NCBI RefSeq assembly: GCF_009931435.1
Contig: NZ_CP043414.1
Source: Escherichia coli
GTDB lineage: Bacteria; Pseudomonadota; Gammaproteobacteria; Enterobacterales; Enterobacteriaceae
Length of the DNA: 64,000 nucleotides
Strand: one strand, 5' to 3'
The position numbers and the translations under genes are program-made. The stretch's first letter is position 1, and every line of letters starts with the position of its first letter. The notes under the pieces were generated by a model that searched no databases, was not told where the DNA came from, and was given only the letters and a program-made list of their open reading frames with translations. Positions 35,135-45,265 of the stretch are shown here, in pieces.

Positions 35135-36427
35135 TTATACGGCTTTATTGCGCTTCATGACCATTGCCACAATAAGGCTGAGTAAGAGCGCGCCAATAAT
35201 CCATATCAGCGCACGACTGCCCTGGGACCACAGACTGTAGATGAAGCCAACGATCACCAACAACATAACCAACGTGCCAACGATAAGAATCGGCAACGAG
35301 GCATGGATATCATGACGCAGGCGGATCGCCACCACAAACACCGCCAGGTAGCAGATCAAAAAGGTGGCACTGGCAACGCTGGCGAGTGAGCCTAAATTTA
35401 GCGCCGCCGTCATCAGCATAATCAACACCACGACGATGATGTTGCCCCAGGTACTCTGCCGCCACAGAGATTTATTCATTAGCTTCGGCAGTTCGCGTTC
35501 GCTTCCCATGTTGTCCATGATGTTAAACACGGCGAACAGGTTCGCGTTGATGGCTGAAGCCGTCGCCAGTAAAGCACCGATGACAACGATCACATAACCC
35601 ACATGCCCGAGGAGCGGAGATGCGGCCTGCGCTACGGCGGTATCGGCATATTTTTCTAACTCTAATGCCGATACATCGCTAAGCAGTACCAGCGCCAGCG
35701 CGATGTAAAGCAGTGTGGTAACGCCAATCGCCACCAGAAACGCCCGTGGCATAATGACCGCCGGATCTTTCACTTTATCCGCCGCGTTCGCCATCATGCC
35801 AAAGCCCGCATAGGCAAGGAAGGTTATCCCGATACAGGAGAAGAACGCACCGGAGCTGGGAGGCGCAGAGACGGAAATATGCGCCGGTTGTAGCGACCAG
35901 ACACCGGCAATAATCAGCAATAACAGGATCATCATTTTAATGCCGACGAGGATCACTTCCAGCCGCCCTACCGCATGGTTGCTTAAGGAGTTGAAAAGCG
36001 TCATCACCGCAATGATCCCCAACGCGTAGAGCAGAATAAGGTGCTCCTCCTGGCTGCCTTCATGCAAAAACTGCACGGCATAAGCGCCAAAAGCACGGGC
36101 GACCATGGCGATGCTTACCGCCAGCGTCAACAGGTACAGTAACGAGAGCGCCAGCGAAAAGACGCCGTTGCCTAATCCGCGACGAAAGAAGTCGATAATA
36201 CCGCCATTGCTGGGATAGCTCGCCCCCAGACGCGCATAGGCATAACCAGAAAACATCGCCACAATACCACCAAAAGCAAAGGCGACCCAGGTCGAGGCTT
36301 CCATTAGCAACGCAGCCTGCCCCAGCAGCGCGAAGATCCCCGCCCCCACCATTGCCCCAATGCCAATGGAAACGACGTTCCATAGACCGAGGGGTTTGTT
36401 ACCGTTATTACCTTCCGTGTTCATCAT
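35135..36427 (-). CDS. ybaT: APC-superfamily amino-acid transporter YbaT
   Basis: 430-aa polytopic membrane ORF, co-oriented with and directly downstream of glsA as in K-12. Confidence 0.85.
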   Translation of the reverse strand: MMNTEGNNGNKPLGLWNVVSIGIGAMVGAGIFALLGQAALLMEASTWVAFAFGGIVAMFSGYAYARLGASYPSNGGIIDFFRRGLGNGVFSLALSLLYLLTLAVSIAMVARAFGAYAVQFLHEGSQEEHLILLYALGIIAVMTLFNSLSNHAVGRLEVILVGIKMMILLLLIIAGVWSLQPAHISVSAPPSSGAFFSCIGITFLAYAGFGMMANAADKVKDPAVIMPRAFLVAIGVTTLLYIALALVLLSDVSALELEKYADTAVAQAASPLLGHVGYVIVVIGALLATASAINANLFAVFNIMDNMGSERELPKLMNKSLWRQSTWGNIIVVVLIMLMTAALNLGSLASVASATFLICYLAVFVVAIRLRHDIHASLPILIVGTLVMLLVIVGFIYSLWSQGSRALIWIIGALLLSLIVAMVMKRNKAV

Positions 36428-36429
36428 GA

Positions 36430-37362
36430 TCAGCCCTTAAACACGTTATAGCCGAGTTGATTAGCGACCGATGCCACCATTTTTTGACCGCGAACACTGT
36501 TGCCTTCTTCGTCCAGTGGTGGTGAAAACGCGGCAATTCCCATCACGCCAGGGACAACCGCCAGAATACCGCCACCTACACCGCTTTTGCCCGGTAAACC
36601 AACGCGATATGCCCAGTCACCGGAGCGACCATACAGCCCTTCCATCATCATTTCGGCCAGAATGCACGGCACGTTGTCGGCCTGAAGAACGCGTTTATGC
36701 GTCAGCGGATTCACACCACCCGCCGCCAGCGTCGCGCCAAGCGTTGCCAGTTCAATAGTATTGAGGAGCGTGGAGCACTGACGGGTATACACGTCACAGG
36801 CTTCCATTGCATCACAATAGAGATATCCGGCGGAGTACAGCAGCCAGGCTATGGCCCGGTTATGGAAGTTGGTTGTTTGTTCCGACTGGTTGACTTCATC
36901 AGAGAGCGCTACCTGCTCACCAGCCAGTTGTTGTTGGATATGTAAAATTCGCTGCCAGCGTTGTTCAGTATTTTCAGCGTTAATCAGGCTGGTGGTGGCA
37001 ATAGCGCCAGCATTTACCAGTGGCGAAAGCGGTTTGCCGCCATGCAACTCTAAGGCGATAACGGAGTTAAAGGGCAATCCGGTCGGGTCAGCGCCAACTT
37101 TGTCCTGTACCGCCTGCGGGCCGACATCTTCTAACGCAAGGGCTAACGTACAGACTTTTGAGATGGATTCCAGCGCAAAGCGGTAATCACTGTCACCCGC
37201 GCTAAAGACTTTACCATCGCAGGTCACGATAGCCACTGCCGCCAGTTGACTGGGCACATTCGCCAGAAAGGGAATGTAATCGGCATTTTGTCCGCCGTTA
37301 AGTGAGTGAAATTGGGTGTAAGCCTGATCCACTGCCTGCTGTAATGTGTTTGCATCTAACAT
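36430..37362 (-). CDS. glsA: Glutaminase 1
   Basis: 310-aa ORF MLDANTLQQAVDQAYTQFHSLNGGQNADYIPFLANVPSQL..., serine-dependent glutaminase family. Confidence 0.9.
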   Translation of the reverse strand: MLDANTLQQAVDQAYTQFHSLNGGQNADYIPFLANVPSQLAAVAIVTCDGKVFSAGDSDYRFALESISKVCTLALALEDVGPQAVQDKVGADPTGLPFNSVIALELHGGKPLSPLVNAGAIATTSLINAENTEQRWQRILHIQQQLAGEQVALSDEVNQSEQTTNFHNRAIAWLLYSAGYLYCDAMEACDVYTRQCSTLLNTIELATLGATLAAGGVNPLTHKRVLQADNVPCILAEMMMEGLYGRSGDWAYRVGLPGKSGVGGGILAVVPGVMGIAAFSPPLDEEGNSVRGQKMVASVANQLGYNVFKG

Positions 37363-37553
37363 CTTTTGTTAACTCCTTTTTATAGATGCGGGAGGGGATT
37401 CCTCACCCCGGTGCCGATTTTCAGGCATCCTGATTTAACTTAGCACCCGCGACTTAACTACAGGAAAACAAAGAGATAAATGTCTAATCCTGATGCAAAT
37501 TGAGCCGATTTTTTAATCTTTACGGACTTTTACCCGCCTGGTTTATTAATTTC

Positions 37554-37584
37554 TTGACCTTCCCCTTGCTGGAAGGTTTAACCT
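37554..37584 (+). promoter_or_regulatory. copA promoter with CueR operator (MerR-type 19-bp spacer)
   Basis: TTGACC (-35, 37554-37559), dyad ACCTTCCCCTTGCTGGAAGGT within a 19-bp spacer, TAACCT (-10, 37579-37584); AAGGAG RBS at 37611-37616 ahead of the copA ATG. Matches the known copA promoter architecture as I recall it. Confidence 0.8.
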
Positions 37585-37623
37585 TTATCACAGCCAGTCA
37601 AAACTGTCTCAAAGGAGTACGTT

Positions 37624-40128
37624 ATGTCACAAACTATCGACCTGACCCTGGACGGCCTGTCCTGCGGTCACTGCGTTAAACGCGTGAAAGAAAGTCTCGA
37701 ACAGCGCCCGGATGTTGAACAGGCGGATGTGTCTGTCACTGAAGCGCACGTTACCGGGACTGCCAGTGCAGAACAGCTGATCGAAACCATCAAACAAGCG
37801 GGTTATGACGCATCTGTAAGCCACCCAAAGGCTAAACCGCTGGCGGAGTCATCAATCCCGTCGGAAGCACTGACAGCGGTTTCTGAGGCGCTTCCGGCAG
37901 CGACCGCCGATGACGATGACAGCCAGCAGTTGCTGCTGAGCGGCATGAGCTGCGCCAGCTGTGTCACCCGCGTACAAAATGCGCTGCAAAGCGTACCGGG
38001 CGTCACTCAGGCACGGGTAAACCTGGCGGAGCGTACTGCGCTGGTGATGGGCAGTGCCTCCCCACAAGATTTAGTGCAGGCGGTGGAAAAAGCGGGCTAC
38101 GGCGCGGAAGCGATTGAAGATGACGCGAAACGCCGTGAGCGCCAGCAGGAAACCGCCGTCGCTACCATGAAGCGCTTCCGCTGGCAGGCAATTGTCGCAC
38201 TGGCGGTGGGTATCCCGGTGATGGTCTGGGGGATGATTGGCGATAACATGATGGTCACCGCTGACAACCGCAGCCTGTGGTTAGTTATCGGCCTGATAAC
38301 GCTGGCGGTAATGGTTTTCGCCGGCGGGCATTTTTACCGTAGCGCATGGAAAAGCCTGCTGAACGGTGCGGCGACAATGGATACGCTGGTGGCGCTGGGT
38401 ACTGGCGTGGCGTGGCTCTATTCAATGAGCGTCAACCTGTGGCCGCAGTGGTTCCCGATGGAAGCGCGACATCTTTATTACGAAGCCAGTGCGATGATTA
38501 TCGGTCTGATTAATCTCGGTCATATGCTGGAAGCGCGCGCACGTCAGCGTTCTTCAAAGGCGCTGGAGAAATTACTCGATTTAACCCCGCCGACGGCGCG
38601 CCTGGTCACTGACGAAGGTGAAAAAAGCGTGCCGCTGGCAGATGTTCAGCCTGGTATGTTACTACGCCTGACGACCGGCGATCGTGTACCGGTAGATGGT
38701 GAAATTACCCAGGGCGAAGCGTGGCTGGATGAAGCAATGCTGACGGGCGAACCTATCCCACAACAAAAAGGCGAAGGCGATAGCGTTCATGCCGGTACCG
38801 TGGTGCAGGACGGTAGCGTGCTGTTTCGTGCCAGTGCGGTTGGCAGCCATACTACGCTGTCACGGATCATTCGTATGGTGCGCCAGGCCCAGAGCAGTAA
38901 ACCGGAAATCGGCCAGTTGGCGGATAAAATCTCTGCCGTATTTGTGCCGGTAGTGGTGGTGATTGCGCTGGTCAGTGCGGCAATCTGGTACTTCTTTGGT
39001 CCGGCACCGCAAATTGTTTATACCCTGGTGATTGCCACTACGGTACTGATTATCGCCTGCCCGTGTGCGCTGGGGCTGGCAACGCCAATGTCGATTATTT
39101 CCGGCGTAGGGCGTGCGGCTGAATTTGGCGTGCTGGTGCGGGACGCCGACGCGCTGCAGCGCGCCAGTACGCTCGATACCGTAGTATTCGATAAAACCGG
39201 GACGCTGACGGAAGGTAAACCGCAGGTTGTCGCGGTGAAAACATTTGCTGATGTTGACGAAGCGCAGGCGCTGCGTCTGGCGGCGGCACTGGAACAAGGT
39301 TCCAGCCATCCGCTGGCACGGGCGATCCTCGATAAAGCAGGCGATATGCAGCTGCCGCAGGTCAACAGCTTCCGTACATTGCGTGGGCTGGGCGTGAGCG
39401 GTGAAGCAGAAGGTCATGCGTTATTGCTGGGTAATCAGGCGTTGTTAAATGACCAGCAAGTCGATACTAAAGCGATTGAAGCAGATATTTCAGCCCAGGC
39501 ATCGCAAGGGGCAACGCCTGTGCTGCTGGCGGTTGACGGGAAAGCGGTAGCCCTGCTGGCTGTACGCGATCCATTGCGTAGTGATAGCGTGGCGGCGCTG
39601 CAACGTCTGCATAAAGCGGGATATCGTCTGGTGATGCTAACCGGGGATAACCCGACCACCGCCAATGCGATCGCCAAAGAGGCAGGGATTGATGAGGTGA
39701 TAGCCGGGGTGCTGCCAGACGGTAAAGCCGAAGCGATCAAACGTCTGCAAAGTGAAGGACGTCAGGTGGCAATGGTGGGTGACGGCATTAACGACGCGCC
39801 AGCACTGGCTCAGGCGGATGTCGGTATTGCTATGGGTGGCGGCAGTGATGTTGCCATTGAAACCGCGGCGATTACCCTGATGCGCCATAGCCTGATGGGT
39901 GTTGCGGATGCGCTCGCAATTTCCCGCGCAACGCTGCGCAACATGAAGCAGAACCTGCTCGGTGCGTTTATCTACAACAGCATTGGTATTCCGGTCGCCG
40001 CCGGTATTTTGTGGCCGTTCACGGGAACACTGCTTAACCCGGTAGTAGCCGGGGCAGCAATGGCACTCTCGTCGATTACCGTAGTGAGTAACGCCAACCG
40101 GTTGCTGCGGTTTAAACCGAAAGAGTGA
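37624..40128 (+). CDS. copA: Cu(I)-exporting P1B-type ATPase CopA
   Basis: 834-aa ORF with two N-terminal CxxC metal-binding domains ([16 protein letters not shown]), CPC transmembrane metal site, DKTGT phosphorylation motif and GDGINDAP. Confidence 0.95.
37824..37830 (+). other. copA: Programmed -1 ribosomal frameshift site producing CopA(Z)
   Basis: Slippery heptamer C CCA AAG at copA codons 68-69 (...VSHPKAKPL). In the -1 frame the next codons are GGC TAA, giving a ~70-aa product ending ...HPKG, consistent with the described CopA(Z) metallochaperone. Confidence 0.7.
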
Positions 40129-40556
40129 TTGTTATTTACTTAATGCGTTTGTGAGATCCAGTTCTTGTTGCGCTCCTTTTATGAGTCATGCCATATAAAG
40201 TGACTGGCGCAAGGAGCGCGCAGGGGGCGGCCAATCGCCGCCGCCCCCTGCACCCCCGGGCTCTGGCGAACAAAATCGCCGCTGCGCGGTACCCTCGGCT
40301 TATCCCTTGCGGCTACCGGGTCGGGCGCGAGGTAACATCCCTGTAAAACGCGCCCTCAGCCCACATCCATGTGGGCTGCCCCGGCCTTCAGGGAACGCCT
40401 CGGCGATTTTGACGCCACCAACACCCGTGCAGTCTTTCGTTTCAAAGCAAAAACAATTTTTCGATCATATTTAAGCTACCACTGAACAAGCCTCATAACT
40501 CCATTTGCGCCATCCCTCACCGCGCGCTAGCATGATATTTCACAAAGGGAGGTCGT

Positions 40557-41351
40557 ATGGATCTGTTGTACCGGGTAAAAACGCTTTGGGCCGCGCTGCG
40601 CGGCAATCATTACACCTGGCCTGCTATCGATATCTCTCTTCCCGGCAATCGCCATTTTCATCTGATTGGCAGTATTCATATGGGCAGCCACGATATGGCT
40701 CCCCTGCCCCCCCGTTTGCTCAAAAAGCTCAAAAACGCCGATGCGCTGATCGTCGAGGCGGATGTTTCCACCAGCGATACGCCTTTTGCCAATTTGCCTG
40801 CCTGCGAGGCGCTGGAAGAGCGCATTAGCGAGGAGCAATTACAAAATCTGCAAAACATAAGCCAGGAGATGGGTATTTCTCCATCGCTCTTTTCTACCCA
40901 ACCGCTGTGGCAAATCGCGATGGTTCTTCAGGCAACGCAAGCGCAAAAACTGGGGCTGCGGGCAGAATATGGTATCGATTACCAGCTATTGCAGGTGGCG
41001 AAGCAACAACATAAACCCGTGATTGAACTGGAAGGGGCAGAAAACCAGATTGCCATGTTGCTCCAGCTCCCTGACAAAGGACTGGCGCTGCTGGACGATA
41101 CGCTGACCCACTGGCACACCAACGCTCGTTTGCTGCAACAAATGATGAGCTGGTGGCTGAATGCGCCGCCGCAAAATAATGAAATAACGCTGCCCAATAC
41201 GTTCAGTCAGTCGCTGTACGATGTGCTGATGCATCAGCGAAATCTCGCCTGGCGGGACAAATTACGCGCCATGCCGCCGGGACGCTATGTGGTCGCGGTC
41301 GGAGCTTTACATCTGTATGGAGAAGGGAATTTGCCGCAGATGTTGCGCTAA
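40557..41351 (+). CDS. ybaP: TraB/GumN-family protein YbaP
   Basis: 264-aa ORF positioned between copA and ybaK as in K-12. Confidence 0.8.
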   Translation: MDLLYRVKTLWAALRGNHYTWPAIDISLPGNRHFHLIGSIHMGSHDMAPLPPRLLKKLKNADALIVEADVSTSDTPFANLPACEALEERISEEQLQNLQNISQEMGISPSLFSTQPLWQIAMVLQATQAQKLGLRAEYGIDYQLLQVAKQQHKPVIELEGAENQIAMLLQLPDKGLALLDDTLTHWHTNARLLQQMMSWWLNAPPQNNEITLPNTFSQSLYDVLMHQRNLAWRDKLRAMPPGRYVVAVGALHLYGEGNLPQMLR

Positions 41352-41433
41352 AAAAATGGCCAATATCGCTATTGGCCCGTCAAAGAGGAATTTCATTTTT
41401 TTATTATTATGCCGTCACTTTAAGCGACGGTGT
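41350..41433 (-). ncRNA. chiX: ChiX (MicM/SroB) Hfq-dependent small RNA
   Basis: The reverse complement of 41350-41433 reads ACACCGTCGCTTAAAGTGACGGCATAATAATAAAAAAATGAAATTCCTCTTTGACGGGCCAATAGCGATATTGGCCATTTTTTT, matching the ChiX sequence as I recall it, including the 3' terminator hairpin and U-run, in the expected ybaP-ybaK spacer. Confidence 0.85.
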
Positions 41434-41554
41434 AACTCGATTGTCGCTCAATCTCACCATCCTGCCAATACTCTTAGGCAAGATGACTCTTTTTTTTGGA
41501 CCGCCATCAGGCGTATGCTTGCTTCGTTTTTTTGTTTAAGGCAGGAAAATTACC

Positions 41555-42034
41555 ATGACACCCGCAGTTAAATTACTCGAAAAAAACAAGATTTCGTTTC
41601 AAATCCACACCTACGAGCACGATCCGGCTGAAACCAATTTTGGCGATGAAGTCGTCAAAAAATTAGGTTTGAATCCGGATCAGGTCTACAAAACGCTGCT
41701 GGTGGCAGTGAACGGTGATATGAAGCACCTTGCAGTGGCCGTTACGCCGGTCGCAGGTCAACTGGATCTTAAAAAAGTAGCAAAGGCGTTGGGTGCCAAG
41801 AAAGTTGAGATGGCCGATCCGATGGTTGCGCAGCGTTCGACGGGGTATCTGGTTGGGGGGATTAGCCCACTGGGGCAGAAAAAACGCCTGCCGACGATTA
41901 TCGACGCCCCCGCGCAAGAGTTTGCCACTATTTTTGTTTCTGGCGGCAAGCGCGGGCTGGACATTGAACTGGCGGCAAGCGACCTGGCGAAGATCCTCGA
42001 TGCCAAATTTGCTGATATCGCTCGTCGCGATTAA
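41555..42034 (+). CDS. ybaK: Cys-tRNA(Pro)/Cys-tRNA(Cys) deacylase YbaK
   Basis: 159-aa [27 protein letters not shown]... of the YbaK/ProX trans-editing family. Confidence 0.9.
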
Positions 42035-42057
42035 GTGATGCACACGGAAGATGAGAT

Positions 42058-42858
42058 GTGGAAAGGATTACAGAGACATTAAGTATCGCTTGTGCAGATG
42101 AGATACCGGATATCGCCTTACTTCGGCAAACATCGAGAGAAAAGGTATTACATCTGCATTTTGCCAGCGAAGCAGAGAGGTATCGTGAGGAATTCGGGCT
42201 GGTGCTGAAAGCACAGCTCGATGAATTTGTTGTTGGCATGCATTCTGCCGACCCGGTTATCAGGATCGCCAGATTAATATCGCTTGAAGAGATTAACCGC
42301 CATCAGGATTTTTTCGAACACTGCGCGAAAGAATATCGTAAGCTGGCGACAGAGCTTATATTTGCATTGGCTGAACAACTGAACGTTGAGATGGCGGAAA
42401 ATAACCCGCTAGTTACCTTTGCCCCCTTCAAATGCAACCGTAAGCGAAAAGGCAAAATGGGAAAGTGGCAGTATTGTTTTCATGGTTTTCATTGTGCATT
42501 TGAGAATAAAAAAACAGAGCAAAATATTGAAGTTCCCCTCGCCTACGGCTTTGATTTCGGCGATCTGGACCCGTATTTTTTTTCCGTATTTATCAAATCG
42601 ACCCCCGCCTGGCAGCCTCTGCCAGTGGCTATTTACGATGATTACCACGACGGCAGCAGGATCATTCAACAACTGCTGGCGCTGGGAAAGTTAGAAAAAA
42701 TCCCTTCACCGATCCCACAATACACGGGTGTTGCTGCGGTAGATTGGTCCAATGTCGACATCGCAAGTTTTCGCTCAACACTGGAGAGTCGCCTGCACCG
42801 ATGCAAATTACGCTGGCTTTTGAAGCATGTAAAAAACTCACAAAGGAGCGAAAGATGA
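42058..42858 (+). CDS. Hypothetical protein A (~266 aa; start uncertain), first gene of a two-gene module between ybaK and ushA
   Basis: Track ORF begins at a GTG 24 nt after the ybaK stop; the first in-frame ATG is ~60 codons in. No transmembrane segment or NTPase motif seen. Cys/His cluster CNRKRKGKMGKWQYCFHGFHC could be a metal-binding knuckle. Its stop overlaps the next gene's ATG (ATGA). Confidence 0.5.
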   Translation: MERITETLSIACADEIPDIALLRQTSREKVLHLHFASEAERYREEFGLVLKAQLDEFVVGMHSADPVIRIARLISLEEINRHQDFFEHCAKEYRKLATELIFALAEQLNVEMAENNPLVTFAPFKCNRKRKGKMGKWQYCFHGFHCAFENKKTEQNIEVPLAYGFDFGDLDPYFFSVFIKSTPAWQPLPVAIYDDYHDGSRIIQQLLALGKLEKIPSPIPQYTGVAAVDWSNVDIASFRSTLESRLHRCKLRWLLKHVKNSQRSER

Positions 42859-43358
42859 AATTTGACCATCTTGTTGATGTTAGCTTCCACAATTTTGTCT
42901 TTAACGGAAAATTCGATTTTGTCGAACTGGGGCAAACAATGGCATGGTTGGAACAAAACTTTATTGAGCCGGACTCTAAAAATGATATGGGAAATGGTTT
43001 TTATATCTGGCTATTTGGTAATGTTGAGTTTCATTTCGAAAACAACAAGCTATATATGATTTGGTACGATTATCTGAGCCAAATCCATTTGGGCAAAGCG
43101 ATCCGATTTGATAAAGGAATATTGAATAACGTCGCTGAGTTGAACGTTACGCGTGTATTTAACATGCTTGTTAACGAAGGCGCTGATCTGCAAATCCACC
43201 GTCAATCGCCCCATACACTATTAATCCACGTCAATCGCTCAGGCGTGACACTTTGGTTTGAAGCAGATGAAGAACAGCCCGGTGAACCGCAGAATTATAT
43301 GCTGATGGCATTTGGTTTGACACATCGCGATTACGATGCAAGATTTCAATATTCATAA
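42855..43358 (+). CDS. Hypothetical protein B (167 aa), translationally coupled to protein A
   Basis: ATG at 42855 is preceded by a strong AGGAG Shine-Dalgarno (caaAGGAGcgaaagATG); the track ORF (42744) extends upstream in frame but I prefer this start. Aromatic-rich soluble protein (MKFDHLVDVSFHNFVFNGKFDFVELG...); no motif I recognise. Confidence 0.5.
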   Translation: MKFDHLVDVSFHNFVFNGKFDFVELGQTMAWLEQNFIEPDSKNDMGNGFYIWLFGNVEFHFENNKLYMIWYDYLSQIHLGKAIRFDKGILNNVAELNVTRVFNMLVNEGADLQIHRQSPHTLLIHVNRSGVTLWFEADEEQPGEPQNYMLMAFGLTHRDYDARFQYS

Positions 43359-43395
43359 ATGGCGGCGTCATATCATGACGCCGCGACAGGGTTCA

Positions 43396-45048
43396 TTACT
43401 GCCAGCTCACCTCACCTTTCGGTTCATAGACACTCACATCCAGCGGCGAGTTTTTCTGGATATACGCTTTCAGCACTTCAGCATCAATAAAGCCGGTATT
43501 CACATAGCCCGGTTTGTTATCCAGACGCGGATAGCCATCACCGCCAGTGGCATTGAAGTTTAATGTCGCCATACGGTAAGTTTTCGCCGGATCGACCGGT
43601 TCGCCTTTGATTTTCAGGTCGTTCAGTTTGCCGTCTTTCGCCACAAAGCTAACGTTGGCAAATTGCGGATAGGCACCAGAATCAGGCTTCATTTGTGCGA
43701 CGGCGGTCAGGTAATCAATCACCTCTTTACCGGTCATGTCGGCATACACCACCACATTGCCGAATGGCTGCACTTTCAGCACATTTTTATAGCTGATATC
43801 ACCTGCTTCGATAGAATCACGAATTCCGCCTCCGCTCATCACCGCAAAGTCGGCACCAGTGCGATCCATTTGTGCTGCCAGAATCAACCGCCCCATATTG
43901 GTCTGTACAAAACGCACTTTGCTGCGGTCGCCTTCCAGACGACCATTGGTTTCGCCTATTTTCACTTCCAGCTGCGCTTTGCCTTTGTTCTGGAACGGTG
44001 ATAACAGCGAAATCATTTGCTGGTTTTCGGCGATTTCAGGGGTGTAAAGCACACGCTCGCTTTTCCCGTCTTCCCAGGTCACTTTCTTCTTCAGGTTTAC
44101 CGGAATCAACTGGTAGTTGACCATTTTCATTTCGCCGTTGCGAAACTCAAAGTCGGCCCGACCCACGTACTTGCCCCACTCATGCGCCTGTACAATCCAG
44201 ATGCCATTTTGTTGATCCGGTTTGCATGGCGTACCAGGAACGTAATCGACCTGTTTTTTATTTTCTGCCGCCATACAGACTGGATCTTGCGAGTGACCTC
44301 CGACGATCATCGCCAGCGATCCGGCAGGCAGCGCGCGTGCCATCTCCACATCGCCCGGTGCATTAGAGCCGTGCTCACCATTGTCGTAATGCCCCATATG
44401 GGTTGCCGCGATAATAATGTCTGGCTTTTCTGTCTGTTGCAGCTCCTGAATCACCAGCTTCGCTTCATCAGCGGGCTTACGAAATTCGATATCAGTGAAG
44501 TATTCCGGGTTACCAATTTTGGCTGTGTCATCGGTTGTCAGCCCAATAACGGCAATTTTCAGATCCTGACGCTTAAACAGCGCCCATGGTTTAAACAGGC
44601 GCTCACCAGTGCTTTTTTGGTAGATATTGGCGGAAAGCAACGGGAACTTAGCCCACTTTTCCTGCTGGCGTAATACGGTGAGCGGGTTATCAAATTCATG
44701 ATTACCGATCGCCATTGCATCATAGCCTACCAGATTCATACCGCGAAAATCAGGTTCGGCATCCTGTAAGTCGGACTCGGGCACGCCAGTATTAATGTCG
44801 CCACCGGAAAGTAGCAGCACGCTACCACCTTCAGCCGCAACCTCTTTGCGAATACCGTCCACCAGCGTTTTTTGCGCCGCAAGACCATATTCGCCATATT
44901 CATTACGCCAGAAATGACCATGATGATCATTGGTATGCAGAACTGTAATTTTGTAGGTTTTATCCTGCTCATAAGCCAGAGCAGTTTCACTCGCCAGTGT
45001 AAATGTGGTTAACAGTGCTAACGCCACGCCCCGCTGCAATAATTTCAT
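43396..45048 (-). CDS. ushA: Periplasmic UDP-sugar hydrolase / 5'-nucleotidase UshA
   Basis: 550-aa ORF with signal peptide and calcineurin-like metallophosphatase motifs (DHHG, GNHEFD). Confidence 0.95.
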   Translation of the reverse strand: MKLLQRGVALALLTTFTLASETALAYEQDKTYKITVLHTNDHHGHFWRNEYGEYGLAAQKTLVDGIRKEVAAEGGSVLLLSGGDINTGVPESDLQDAEPDFRGMNLVGYDAMAIGNHEFDNPLTVLRQQEKWAKFPLLSANIYQKSTGERLFKPWALFKRQDLKIAVIGLTTDDTAKIGNPEYFTDIEFRKPADEAKLVIQELQQTEKPDIIIAATHMGHYDNGEHGSNAPGDVEMARALPAGSLAMIVGGHSQDPVCMAAENKKQVDYVPGTPCKPDQQNGIWIVQAHEWGKYVGRADFEFRNGEMKMVNYQLIPVNLKKKVTWEDGKSERVLYTPEIAENQQMISLLSPFQNKGKAQLEVKIGETNGRLEGDRSKVRFVQTNMGRLILAAQMDRTGADFAVMSGGGIRDSIEAGDISYKNVLKVQPFGNVVVYADMTGKEVIDYLTAVAQMKPDSGAYPQFANVSFVAKDGKLNDLKIKGEPVDPAKTYRMATLNFNATGGDGYPRLDNKPGYVNTGFIDAEVLKAYIQKNSPLDVSVYEPKGEVSWQ

Positions 45049-45265
45049 ACTTCTCTCCCTGATCAGATTTCAACGTGTTGAAAAATAGTATGACGCGACA
45101 TCATAGACAAGTCTGCGTCCGGTGAAGATAAATCTGCATCCAGATTAGAAATTCTGTATTCAGCGTTGAGACTTCCTTCAGGCGGCGCATACAGGTATGT
45201 TAGTCGGGTAATAATCACAAATAAGATCATTCTTTACATCGCAACCCTGAAAAAGTGACTTTCCT

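What the first reader, a model, noticed from the sequence alone, without database searches (positions are those of the whole stretch)
40129..40556. ybaQ absent between copA and ybaP; replaced by a GC-rich, hairpin-dense 428-bp spacer
In the K-12 order as I recall it, a small HTH regulator gene (ybaQ, ~113 aa) lies between copA and ybaP on the opposite strand. Here no ORF of that kind exists; the only track ORFs at 40505-40838 overlap ybaP out of frame. The spacer is unusually GC-rich for an E. coli intergenic region and contains perfect inverted repeats: cagggggcggc-caatcgcc-gccgccccctg (40221-40250) and agcccacat-cc-atgtgggct (40360-40379, approximate). It is not a canonical REP. It could be a deletion scar, a decayed ybaQ remnant, a structured RNA, or a different repeat family.
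Basis: partly seen in the sequence, partly recalled or inferred. Interest (0 to 1): 0.45.

Follow-up and report, generated by a model that had tools for sequence, protein, structure and literature searches.

The report
Known TRIP1e/RRS repeat replaces ybaQ
The odd GC-rich spacer between copA and ybaP is a published E. coli repeat (TRIP1e, a copy of the "replication risk sequence" that makes the replication machinery leave a short single-stranded gap), and ybaQ is missing because this strain carries a minority version of a variable locus.

Summary
YbaQ is absent from the window and both inverted repeats exist.

The explanation is already published. Window 40167-40432 is TRIP1e (Li et al. 2024, PMC10888264): 38 bp after the copA stop, 124 bp before the ybaP start, 65% G+C. 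It is 94.4% identical to K-12 TRIP1a. Its 222-bp core is 98.6% identical to RRS-lysO, the "replication risk sequence" of Pham, Cox and Goodman.

The RRS G-quadruplex 20-mer is present without mismatch at 40238-40257 (minus strand). Synteny, KOPS skew and a complete genome with a 99.8% identical spacer put it on the lagging-strand template.

The interval is polymorphic in 5426 complete E. coli genomes:
- ybaQ (a HigA-type antitoxin) in 4834
- its toxin gene also present in 1266
- the TRIP1e spacer in 346

Citrobacter has neither ybaQ nor TRIP1. There is no trace of ybaQ in the window, so this is not a scar.

Three points are not in the papers I read:
- The fold is strongly supported by compensatory changes across four genera.
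- The hairpin is conserved more widely than the G4.
- The core resembles the TwoAYGGAY RNA motif below Rfam's threshold, with two CsrA-type GGA loops.

Verdict: ordinary and already known.

The parts
37624..40128 (+). copA, the left neighbour. Its last codons are AAA GAG TGA, like Citrobacter (AAA GAG TAA) and unlike the K-12 and toxin-antitoxin haplotypes (AAG GAA TAA).
40129..40166 (.). 38-bp left flank specific to the TRIP1e haplotype. It has no match in the K-12 or toxin-antitoxin haplotypes. The same flank follows copA in metagenome contig L023, whose copA is 94.4% identical.
40167..40432 (-). TRIP1e repeat, 266 bp, 65% G+C. The strand given is the G-rich one. It is 94.4% identical to K-12 TRIP1a. 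The RRS-equivalent 222-bp core, about 40205-40426, is 98.6% identical to RRS-lysO.
40171..40218 (.). Hairpin A (helix 12): arms 40171-40177 / 40212-40218. Three of its 7 pairs show compensatory changes across genera.
40219..40252 (.). Hairpin B (helix 11), a 12-bp G+C stem with an 8-10 nt loop. Nine of its 12 pairs show compensatory changes.
40238..40257 (-). Exact copy of the RRS G-quadruplex-forming 20-mer GGGGGTGCAGGGGGCGGCGG. It overlaps the 5' arm of hairpin B on the G-rich strand. G4Hunter score is 1.84, the same as TRIP1a.
40271..40411 (-). Central multi-branch domain, closed by the stem 40271-40278 / 40404-40411. It gives a sub-threshold Rfam TwoAYGGAY match over 40273-40412 on the minus strand (30.2 bits, gathering score 43).
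40357..40378 (-). On the G-rich strand the loop and closing pairs read ACAUGGAUGU (40363-40372).
40323..40355 (-). Hairpin 2 of the central domain (helices 7 and 8). On the G-rich strand the loop and closing pairs read ACAGGGAUGU (40335-40344). The letters CA.GGA.G are invariant in all 39 family members, and this site was not part of the search pattern.
40433..40484 (.). 52-bp right flank specific to the TRIP1e haplotype.
40485..40556 (+). ybaP upstream region shared with K-12. About 60 bp of it is shared by all three E. coli haplotypes and partly by Citrobacter. I presume it holds the ybaP promoter and ribosome-binding site; that is inference.
40557..41351 (+). ybaP (TraB/GumN family), the right neighbour.

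Best explanation
Shown. The spacer carries TRIP1e, one of five locus-specific copies of the E. coli TRIP1 repeat. TRIP1a and TRIP1c are the 'replication risk sequences' RRS-lysO and RRS-dusC. ybaQ is absent because this strain has a minority haplotype of a polymorphic interval: ybaQ is a HigA-type antitoxin gene, with or without its toxin gene, and is present in most but not all E. coli. The element is a densely self-pairing DNA made of two hairpins plus a multi-branch domain. Its pairings are maintained by compensatory substitutions across Escherichia, Klebsiella, Citrobacter and Pseudocitrobacter. It holds an exact copy of the RRS G-quadruplex 20-mer.

Inferred mechanism. When the fork passes, moving right to left in window coordinates, the G-rich minus strand becomes the single-stranded lagging-strand template. 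It folds into hairpin B and/or the G4 plus the branched domain. The lagging-strand polymerase stops there and restarts at the next primer. This leaves a transient post-replication gap of up to about 2 kb that binds SSB and RecA. [quoted passage not shown] Here it would act as an extra RRS well outside the Ter-flanking pair.

Second consequence. The copy is a substrate for homologous recombination with the other copies. Rearrangements between TRIP1a and TRIP1e, and between TRIP1e and TRIP1c, have been reported.
For: Identity.
- The position matches Li et al. exactly: 38 bp after the copA stop and 124 bp before the ybaP start.
- It is 94.4% identical to K-12 TRIP1a over 266 bp and 98.6% over the 222-bp core.
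- The repeat is present in 5425 of 5426 complete E. coli genomes, median 3 copies, at aqpZ-lysO, dusC-yohP and putP-efeU.
- The whole 428-bp spacer is in 346 genomes.

RRS features.
- The G4 20-mer quoted by Pham et al. is found with 0 mismatches, once in the window.
- The G4Hunter score equals that of TRIP1a.

Orientation.
- The window runs opposite to K-12, and the G-rich strand corresponds to the K-12 top strand at both TRIP1a and TRIP1e.
- KOPS motifs are 0 on the plus strand and 4 on the minus strand; GC skew is slightly negative.
- In complete genome NZ_CP169399.1 (spacer 99.8% identical, plus strand, at 3.72 Mb of 5.22 Mb), the record starts at dnaA on the plus strand. With oriC about 42 kb from dnaA (my own knowledge of K-12), the fork would cross this locus in decreasing coordinates.

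Fold.
- Shuffle z-scores are -5.4 to -6.0.
- 99.4% of cells are paired against 36-45% when partners are slid.
- 27 of 66 pairs have compensatory changes against 2-6 when slid.

Function of the family: (papers).

Polymorphism.
Against: - Nothing here measures replication, gaps or RecA/SSB binding at this copy.
- The window's own chromosome is not available, so the strand assignment rests on synteny, four KOPS sites and another strain's genome.
- By synteny TRIP1e lies about 1.1 Mb from dif (dif coordinate from my own knowledge), not 650 kb. It is therefore not part of the Ter-flanking pair for which a role in topology was proposed.
- TRIP1e is present in only about 3-6% of strains, so any function is dispensable.
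- In Citrobacter and some Klebsiella copies the G-runs are eroded (G4Hunter about 1.0-1.2) while hairpin B is kept by compensatory changes. The conserved feature may be the hairpin and not the G4.
- A conserved fold is equally what an RNA would show.
Confidence: 0.8

Rival explanations
1. The element is transcribed from its G-rich strand into a structured small RNA related to the TwoAYGGAY motif. Its two adjacent GGA-loop hairpins bind a CsrA dimer, acting as a sponge or decoy. The DNA effects are a by-product.
For: - TwoAYGGAY (RF01731) is the best Rfam match for 8 of the 14 element-bearing sequences scanned (the window and 13 loci). It is always on the G-rich strand and in 7 of the 8 covers the whole model (25.6-36.4 bits).
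- Both hairpin loops read (A/U)CANGGANG(U/A): ACAUGGAUGU and ACAGGGAUGU, 28 nt apart. Only 7 such sites occur in 64 kb.
- CA.GGA.G in loop 2 is invariant in 39 sequences.
- Gardner and Eldai proposed TwoAYGGAY as a CsrA binder.
- The G-rich strand folds better in 39 of 39 members, and G:U cells outnumber A:C cells.
Against: - All scores are below Rfam's gathering score of 43.
- No promoter-like or terminator-like site is found on either strand.
- No RNA gene is annotated at the K-12 copy examined, aqpZ-lysO.
- CsrA CLIP tables for K-12 list dusC and ybjE as not bound, although intergenic regions may not be covered.
- On pairs common to both strands the wobble asymmetry is weak (15 against 6 cells).
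- G-rich strands fold better as RNA for trivial reasons.
- Invariance of loop 1 is forced by my search pattern.
Confidence: 0.08
2. The element acts in the copA mRNA as a structured 3' untranslated region (C-rich strand), like REP/BIME elements downstream of genes. It would protect against 3' exonucleases, or insulate ybaP from copA read-through.
For: - The element begins 38 bp after the copA stop, in the same orientation in which TRIP1a, b and c follow aqpZ, putP and dusC.
- The left-hand gene reads into the element in 27 of 39 loci.
- In K-12 and Citrobacter the same position holds REP elements.
- The C-rich strand also folds strongly (z = -5.4).
Against: - The orientation rule fails in 12 of 39 loci, and many loci are orthologous, so the counts are not independent.
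- Li et al. report TRIP1a and TRIP1c in either direction in different genomes (the inverted copy L024 is one such case).
- No U-tract terminator is present.
- No expression data were examined.
Confidence: 0.07
3. The element is a selfish or formerly mobile non-autonomous repeat, like a miniature transposable element, with no host function at this locus. It arrived by insertion or by recombination from another lineage.
For: - Copy number varies: 1-8 places per E. coli genome, about 13 in one K. pneumoniae chromosome, and several in Citrobacter genomes, all at unrelated loci.
- Individual copies are present or absent within E. coli.
- Citrobacter lacks it at copA-ybaP.
Against: - I saw no terminal inverted repeats, target-site duplication or associated transposase.
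- There is no empty-site allele; the alternative alleles are different cassettes.
- Compensatory substitutions across genera imply selection on the fold.
Confidence: 0.04
4. The spacer is what is left of ybaQ after deletion and decay.
For: ybaQ occupies this interval in 4834 of 5426 complete genomes.
Against: - There is no tblastn signal for YbaQ.
- There is no DNA similarity to either ybaQ haplotype outside the copA end and the ybaP-proximal 60-72 bp.
- 266 of the 428 bp are a repeat with copies elsewhere.
- The Citrobacter spacer has no ybaQ.
Confidence: 0.01

Closest known systems
TRIP1e (Li, Liu, Ning, Li, Wang 2024, Genes 15:236, PMC10888264); TRIP1 family first described by Rudd 1999
   Same: Same locus and the same distances to copA (38 bp) and ybaP (124 bp). 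Same length within 1 bp, same G+C content (65%), the same 94% identity to TRIP1a, and a similar minority frequency (232 of 6725 there, 346 of 5426 here).
   Different: Nothing substantive. That paper did not mention ybaQ or the toxin-antitoxin alternative, the G4, or the orientation relative to replication.
RRS-lysO and RRS-dusC, replication risk sequences (Pham et al. 2023 NAR PMC10287960; Pham et al. 2024 PMC10592627; Kusi-Appauh et al. 2026 bioRxiv)
   Same: 98.6% identity over the 222-bp core, an exact G4 20-mer, and the G-rich strand on the lagging-strand template (inferred). Ectopic RRS copies in that orientation were shown to trigger gaps at every site tested.
   Different: It is not one of the pair placed symmetrically 650 kb either side of dif; by synteny it is about 1.1 Mb from dif and about 1.5 Mb from oriC. 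It is present in only a few percent of strains. Gap formation at this copy is untested. Pham et al. reported no further G4 site in K-12, and this strain has at least one more.
TwoAYGGAY RNA motif (Rfam RF01731; Weinberg et al. 2010)
   Same: Two adjacent hairpins with GGA-containing loops (ACAUGGAUGU, ACAGGGAUGU) enclosed by a long closing stem. Both are multi-copy and intergenic. The best Rfam match is to the G-rich strand.
   Different: Scores are 25.6-36.4 bits, below the gathering score of 43. The second loop is AGGGAU, not AYGGAY. TRIP1 has two extra hairpins and a third branch. The members I read in part 1 of the Weinberg alignment are from Psychromonas, none enterobacterial.
REP/BIME elements
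   Same: Intergenic G+C-rich palindromic repeats that sit after gene ends. They occupy this very interval in K-12 (three copies) and in Citrobacter (one copy).
   Different: REP units are about 35 bp and have hundreds of copies. No REP or naRNA4 match falls in this spacer. TRIP1 is 266 bp with 1-5 copies.
ybaQ / HigA-type antitoxin cassette at copA-ybaP
   Same: Occupies the same interval between the same two genes.
   Different: It is protein-coding and unrelated in sequence. It is the alternative allele, not a relative.

Membership tests
TRIP1 repeat family, type TRIP1e | Sequence identity to TRIP1a (published: 94% for TRIP1e, length 265 bp) | tested here: met
   251 of 266 positions = 94.4% against the K-12-derived TRIP1a copy, with no gaps.
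TRIP1 repeat family, type TRIP1e | Locus: 38 bp downstream of the copA stop and 124 bp upstream of the ybaP start | tested here: met
   copA ends at 40128 and ybaP starts at 40557. The family alignment puts the edges at about 40167 and 40432.
TRIP1 repeat family, type TRIP1e | G+C content of 62-65% and a very stable predicted fold | tested here: met
   65.0% G+C. Minimum free energy is -134 (plus strand) and -153 (minus strand) kcal/mol, with z = -5.4 and -6.0.
RRS (replication risk sequence) | 222-bp G+C-rich repeat nearly identical to RRS-lysO and RRS-dusC | tested here: met
   216 of 219 = 98.6% to the aqpZ-lysO copy and 93.2% to a dusC copy. The core limits 40205-40426 are my estimate.
RRS (replication risk sequence) | G-quadruplex-forming sequence GGGGGTGCAGGGGGCGGCGG on one strand only | tested here: met
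   Exact match at 40238-40257 on the minus strand, once in the window, none in shuffles. G4Hunter gives a maximum of 1.84 on the G-rich strand. Actual G4 formation was not tested.
RRS (replication risk sequence) | G4 strand is the lagging-strand template | tested here: met
   Indirect evidence only: synteny with K-12, KOPS 0 on plus against 4 on minus, and complete genome NZ_CP169399.1 starting at dnaA with the spacer on the plus strand at 3.72 of 5.22 Mb. The window's own chromosome was not seen.
RRS (replication risk sequence) | One of an inverted pair placed symmetrically about 650 kb from dif, flanking Ter | tested here: not met
   By synteny the locus is at K-12 coordinate 0.508 Mb, against 0.915 Mb for RRS-lysO. 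That is about 0.4 Mb further from the terminus.
RRS (replication risk sequence) | Triggers RecA/SSB-bound post-replication gaps on the lagging strand | not testable with these tools
   Needs ssGap-seq or single-molecule replication assays.
TwoAYGGAY RNA (RF01731) | Covariance-model score at or above the gathering score of 43 bits | tested here: not met
   30.2 bits for the window. Other family members score 25.6-36.4 bits.
TwoAYGGAY RNA (RF01731) | Two terminal loops each containing AYGGAY | tested here: not met
   Loop 1 is AUGGAU, which fits. Loop 2 is AGGGAU, or AAGGAC / ACGGAC in relatives, so position 2 is not consistently a pyrimidine.
REP/BIME | About 35-bp imperfect palindrome of the REP consensus (matches the Rfam naRNA4 model) | tested here: not met
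   No naRNA4 or REP match in 39800-40900 or at gathering level in the spacer. The REP copies of the K-12 interval match elsewhere in the window, not here.
ybaQ (HigA-type antitoxin) | An open reading frame with similarity to YbaQ | tested here: not met
   tblastn best E = 0.74 elsewhere in the window; nothing credible in the spacer.

The most novel reading that the evidence does not exclude
What selection preserves in TRIP1/RRS elements may not be the G-quadruplex. It may be a folded single strand that displays two or three GGA-containing loops. That would make these elements enterobacterial relatives of the TwoAYGGAY motif, read by a sequence-specific single-strand binder: CsrA on a G-rich-strand transcript, or an unknown protein on the exposed lagging-strand template. 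Gap formation at RRS would then be hairpin- or protein-driven.

Support is as follows. Hairpin B and the branched domain covary across four genera, while the G-runs decay in Citrobacter and some Klebsiella copies. The CA.GGA.G loop is invariant. The TwoAYGGAY match is consistent but always below threshold.
Probability: 0.1. Interest if true: 0.6.

Novelty: already known. Interest (0 to 1): 0.2.

Why it matters
For annotation it is a closed case. The spacer should be labelled TRIP1e / RRS-family repeat, and the missing ybaQ is a common presence/absence polymorphism of a toxin-antitoxin-derived gene.

It has modest value as a natural experiment. Strains like this one carry an extra, intact, correctly oriented RRS far from the Ter-flanking pair. 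The published claim that an RRS triggers a lagging-strand gap wherever it sits can therefore be tested without engineering.

The family comparison also offers a way to separate the hairpin from the G4 as the active feature, because Citrobacter copies keep the hairpin but lose the G-runs.

An extra copy also adds a target for large recombinational rearrangements.

Tried and rejected
- **Rfam.** Searches of the spacer at a permissive E-value and of the whole window at gathering level found no family above threshold in the spacer. Only a sub-threshold TwoAYGGAY match appeared.
- **Promoter and terminator scan of 40000-40700.** Nothing on either strand.
- **Tandem repeats.** None in the spacer.
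- **YbaQ and K-12 interval searches.** tblastn of YbaQ and blastn of the K-12 interval found no remnant.
- **Which strand folds.** The G-rich strand gives a better consensus energy (-99.1 against -88.7) and a better fold in 39 of 39 members. On pairs common to both strands, G:U cells are 15 and A:C cells are 6. This is not decisive.
- **Rule that the upstream gene always reads into the element.** It held for the first seven loci but only for 27 of 39 overall, with crude ORF calls and non-independent loci. I dropped it as a rule.
- **Clean insertion into an ancestral spacer.** The Citrobacter 153-bp spacer holds a REP and does not align with the TRIP1e flanks. The direction of change within Escherichia stays open.
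- **CsrA binding in vivo.** Potts et al. 2017 tables list dusC and ybjE as unbound, so there is no support.
- **Non-enterobacterial hits in the genome scan.** L018, L023 and L028 are Klebsiella- or Escherichia-like sequences in metagenome bins and probably come from enterobacterial DNA. L016 matches only the 26-nt pattern.
- **Caveat on the family alignment.** The 39-sequence alignment was gathered with an exact 21-base pattern over 40364-40388, so invariance there is by construction.
- **Small ORFs inside the spacer (38-55 aa).** Single-base indels between genera break the frames, so I treat them as non-coding.

Full report
**1. The observation**

copA is 37624-40128 (+) and ybaP is 40557-41351 (+). 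glsA lies upstream and ybaK downstream. The spacer is 428 bp.

In K-12 the same interval is 794 bp.

tblastn of K-12 YbaQ against the whole window gives nothing better than E = 0.74, and nothing credible in the spacer. Only 40485-40556 and the end of copA align with K-12.

Both inverted repeats are real:
- 40220-40231 / 40240-40251, 12 perfect pairs.
- 40357-40366 / 40369-40378, 10 perfect pairs.

The whole spacer is not especially G+C-rich: 55.6% against 54.7% for the window. The 266-bp core is 65% G+C, which is in the top 0.7% of windows of that size.

Either strand folds much better than shuffled sequence, with z = -5.4 to -6.0.

**2. What it is**

A megablast of the spacer against 5426 complete E. 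coli genomes finds the whole 428 bp in 346 of them. The central 270 bp or so is found in 5425 of them, with a median of three copies and 91-95% identity. The other copies lie between aqpZ and lysO, dusC and yohP, and putP and efeU. They are unannotated in RefSeq, including in K-12.

This is the TRIP1 repeat of Rudd (1999). Li et al. 2024 (PMC10888264) surveyed 6725 genomes and named five locus-specific types. [quoted passage not shown] The window matches on every count: edges at 40167 and 40432, and 94.4% identity to TRIP1a.

TRIP1a and TRIP1c are also the two 'replication risk sequences' (RRS-lysO and RRS-dusC) of Pham, Cox, Goodman and colleagues, who cite Rudd's TRIP1. The 222-bp core of the window copy is 98.6% identical to the lysO copy.

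**3. Why ybaQ is missing**

PGAP names ybaQ a HigA-family antitoxin. The counts among 5426 complete genomes are:

| Feature at copA-ybaP | Genomes |
|---|---|
| ybaQ present | 4834 |
| adjacent RelE/ParE-family toxin gene also kept, in the order copA, ybaQ, toxin, ybaP, no REP in the example examined (L049) | 1266 |
| whole TRIP1e spacer present | 346 |
| none of the above (by subtraction) | about 246 |

K-12 therefore has an orphan antitoxin plus REPs.

The three haplotypes share only about 60 bp upstream of ybaP. They diverge from the last codons of copA onward.

Citrobacter has a 153-bp spacer with one REP, no ybaQ and no TRIP1. Its copA ends AAAGAGTAA, like the window (AAAGAGTGA) and unlike the ybaQ haplotypes (AAGGAATAA).

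A metagenome contig whose copA is 94.4% identical carries the same 38-bp left flank and TRIP1e. The TRIP1e arrangement is therefore not a recent accident.

None of this polarises the change within Escherichia. It does exclude a ybaQ remnant or a simple deletion scar.

**4. Anatomy and conservation**

I collected relatives in two ways: a scan of one genome per species with a 21-base pattern, and blastn against mislabelled chromosomes in the plasmid collection. The family occurs in:
- Escherichia;
- Pseudocitrobacter;
- Klebsiella, with six pattern matches in K. pneumoniae ATCC 13883 and about 13 blastn places in another chromosome;
- Citrobacter, with several copies per genome.

A 39-sequence alignment of the G-rich strand gives a consensus fold of 66 pairs in 12 helices. 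In window coordinates these are:
- hairpin A, 40171-40177 / 40212-40218;
- hairpin B, 40219-40230 / 40241-40252;
- a branched domain closed by 40271-40278 / 40404-40411, which contains hairpins at 40357-40378 and 40323-40355.

The support for the fold is:

| Measure | Real structure | Partners slid by 1-3 columns |
|---|---|---|
| cells forming a standard pair | 99.4% | 36-45% |
| pairs with changes on both sides | 27 | 2-6 |
| covariation score | 0.36 | 0.05-0.08 |

The fold is therefore under selection.

Two caveats apply. The search pattern fixes 40364-40388, so invariance there is forced. The sequences are also related, so counts of cells overstate the number of independent events.

**5. 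The G-quadruplex and the replication strand**

The 20-mer that Pham et al. identify as the G4-forming sequence, GGGGGTGCAGGGGGCGGCGG, is present without mismatch at 40238-40257 on the minus strand.

The G-rich strand corresponds to the K-12 top strand at both TRIP1a and TRIP1e. In the right replichore that strand is the lagging-strand template.

Two further lines agree with this:
- KOPS motifs are 0 on the plus strand and 4 on the minus strand, and GC skew is slightly negative.
- In complete genome NZ_CP169399.1, whose spacer is 99.8% identical, the record starts at dnaA on the plus strand and the spacer is on the plus strand at 3.72 of 5.22 Mb. With oriC about 42 kb from dnaA (my own knowledge of K-12), the fork crosses it in decreasing coordinates.

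So this copy has the orientation in which RRS elements trigger lagging-strand gaps, including when they are moved to other sites.

It is not one of the Ter-flanking pair. By synteny it is about 0.4 Mb further from the terminus than RRS-lysO.

**6. A nuance not in the papers I read**

The G4 20-mer overlaps the 5' arm of hairpin B. Across genera nine of the 12 pairs of hairpin B change on both sides and stay paired. The G-runs erode over the same comparison: G4Hunter is 1.8 in Escherichia, most Klebsiella and Pseudocitrobacter, but 0.9-1.2 in Citrobacter and some Klebsiella copies.

The family-wide conserved feature is therefore the hairpin, and the G4 is specific to some clades. This does not contradict the experiments on the E. 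coli sequence. It does suggest a test.

**7. The RNA question**

The only Rfam match is TwoAYGGAY (RF01731). It is always on the G-rich strand, covers the whole model in 7 of 8 matches, and scores 25.6-36.4 bits, below the gathering score of 43. This holds for 8 of the 14 element-bearing sequences scanned (the window and 13 loci).

The two hairpin loops read ACAUGGAUGU and ACAGGGAUGU. From my own knowledge of Schubert et al. 2007 and Dubey et al. 2005, that is the CsrA/RsmE site consensus (A/U)CANGGANG(U/A). Only seven such sites occur in the 64-kb window. Gardner and Eldai (PMC4333381) had already proposed TwoAYGGAY as a CsrA binder.

Four things count against an RNA role here:
- No promoter or terminator pattern is found.
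- No RNA is annotated at the K-12 copy examined, aqpZ-lysO.
- CsrA CLIP tables list the neighbouring genes as unbound.
- The wobble-pair asymmetry between strands is weak.

I keep this as a low-probability rival and as the most novel reading not excluded.

**8. Verdict**

The element and its locus are published (TRIP1e), and the family has an experimentally supported mechanism (RRS). Interest is low.

Three points may be additions:
- the alternative allele is a toxin-antitoxin cassette;
- this copy carries an intact G4 on the lagging-strand template;
- the family-wide covariation favours the hairpins, with a TwoAYGGAY-like core.

Noticed in passing
window 9224-33333 (minus strand): A single 6923-aa ORF (12562-33333) with about 60% G+C and an internal periodicity of about 1.8 kb. 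It is followed on the same strand by 720-aa and 391-aa ORFs. It looks like a giant repetitive secreted adhesin with type I secretion genes. K-12 is not known to me to have it at this place; the K-12 counterpart of this stretch was not examined here.
   Followed up: no
window 42058-43358: Two ORFs between ybaK and ushA that K-12 lacks. The first has Pfam DUF6896 (E = 8e-14) and the second has no Pfam match. The closest complete genome annotates them as a DUF6896 protein and a hypothetical protein.
   Followed up: partly
L049 1500-2179 (E. coli WP3-W18-ESBL-07) and K-12 L001 5219-5560: ybaQ is annotated as a HigA-family antitoxin. 1266 of 5426 complete E. coli genomes keep a RelE/ParE-family toxin gene next to it. 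K-12's ybaQ is therefore an orphan antitoxin whose toxin gene was lost.
   Followed up: partly
L023 (metagenome contig JAFAEO010000008.1, labelled 'Proteobacteria bacterium'): copA (94.4% identical to the window) is followed by the same 38-bp flank and TRIP1e (98%). After that come a reversed fragment of the dusC 3' end and a second, inverted TRIP1 copy at the contig end. This is possibly a rearrangement between TRIP1 copies in a divergent Escherichia lineage.
   Followed up: partly
L018, L028 (metagenome bins labelled Desulfacinum and Sporobacter): They carry Klebsiella-type TRIP1 copies (82-84% identical to TRIP1e). This is most likely enterobacterial DNA binned into the wrong genomes.
   Followed up: no
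window 41350-41433 (minus strand): The sroB/ChiX small RNA lies between ybaP and ybaK, as in K-12 (82.1 bits, gathering score 44).
   Followed up: yes
window 36003-46962 against K-12 503000-513000: The shared genes are only about 96% identical to K-12 (copA 94.7%, ybaP 95.5%). The window therefore comes from an E. coli lineage distant from K-12.
   Followed up: no
window 40111-40127 and 40430-40446: The last 17 nt of copA are 82% complementary to the sequence at the right edge of TRIP1e, 302 nt away. This could be chance or a long-range stem that brackets the element.
   Followed up: no
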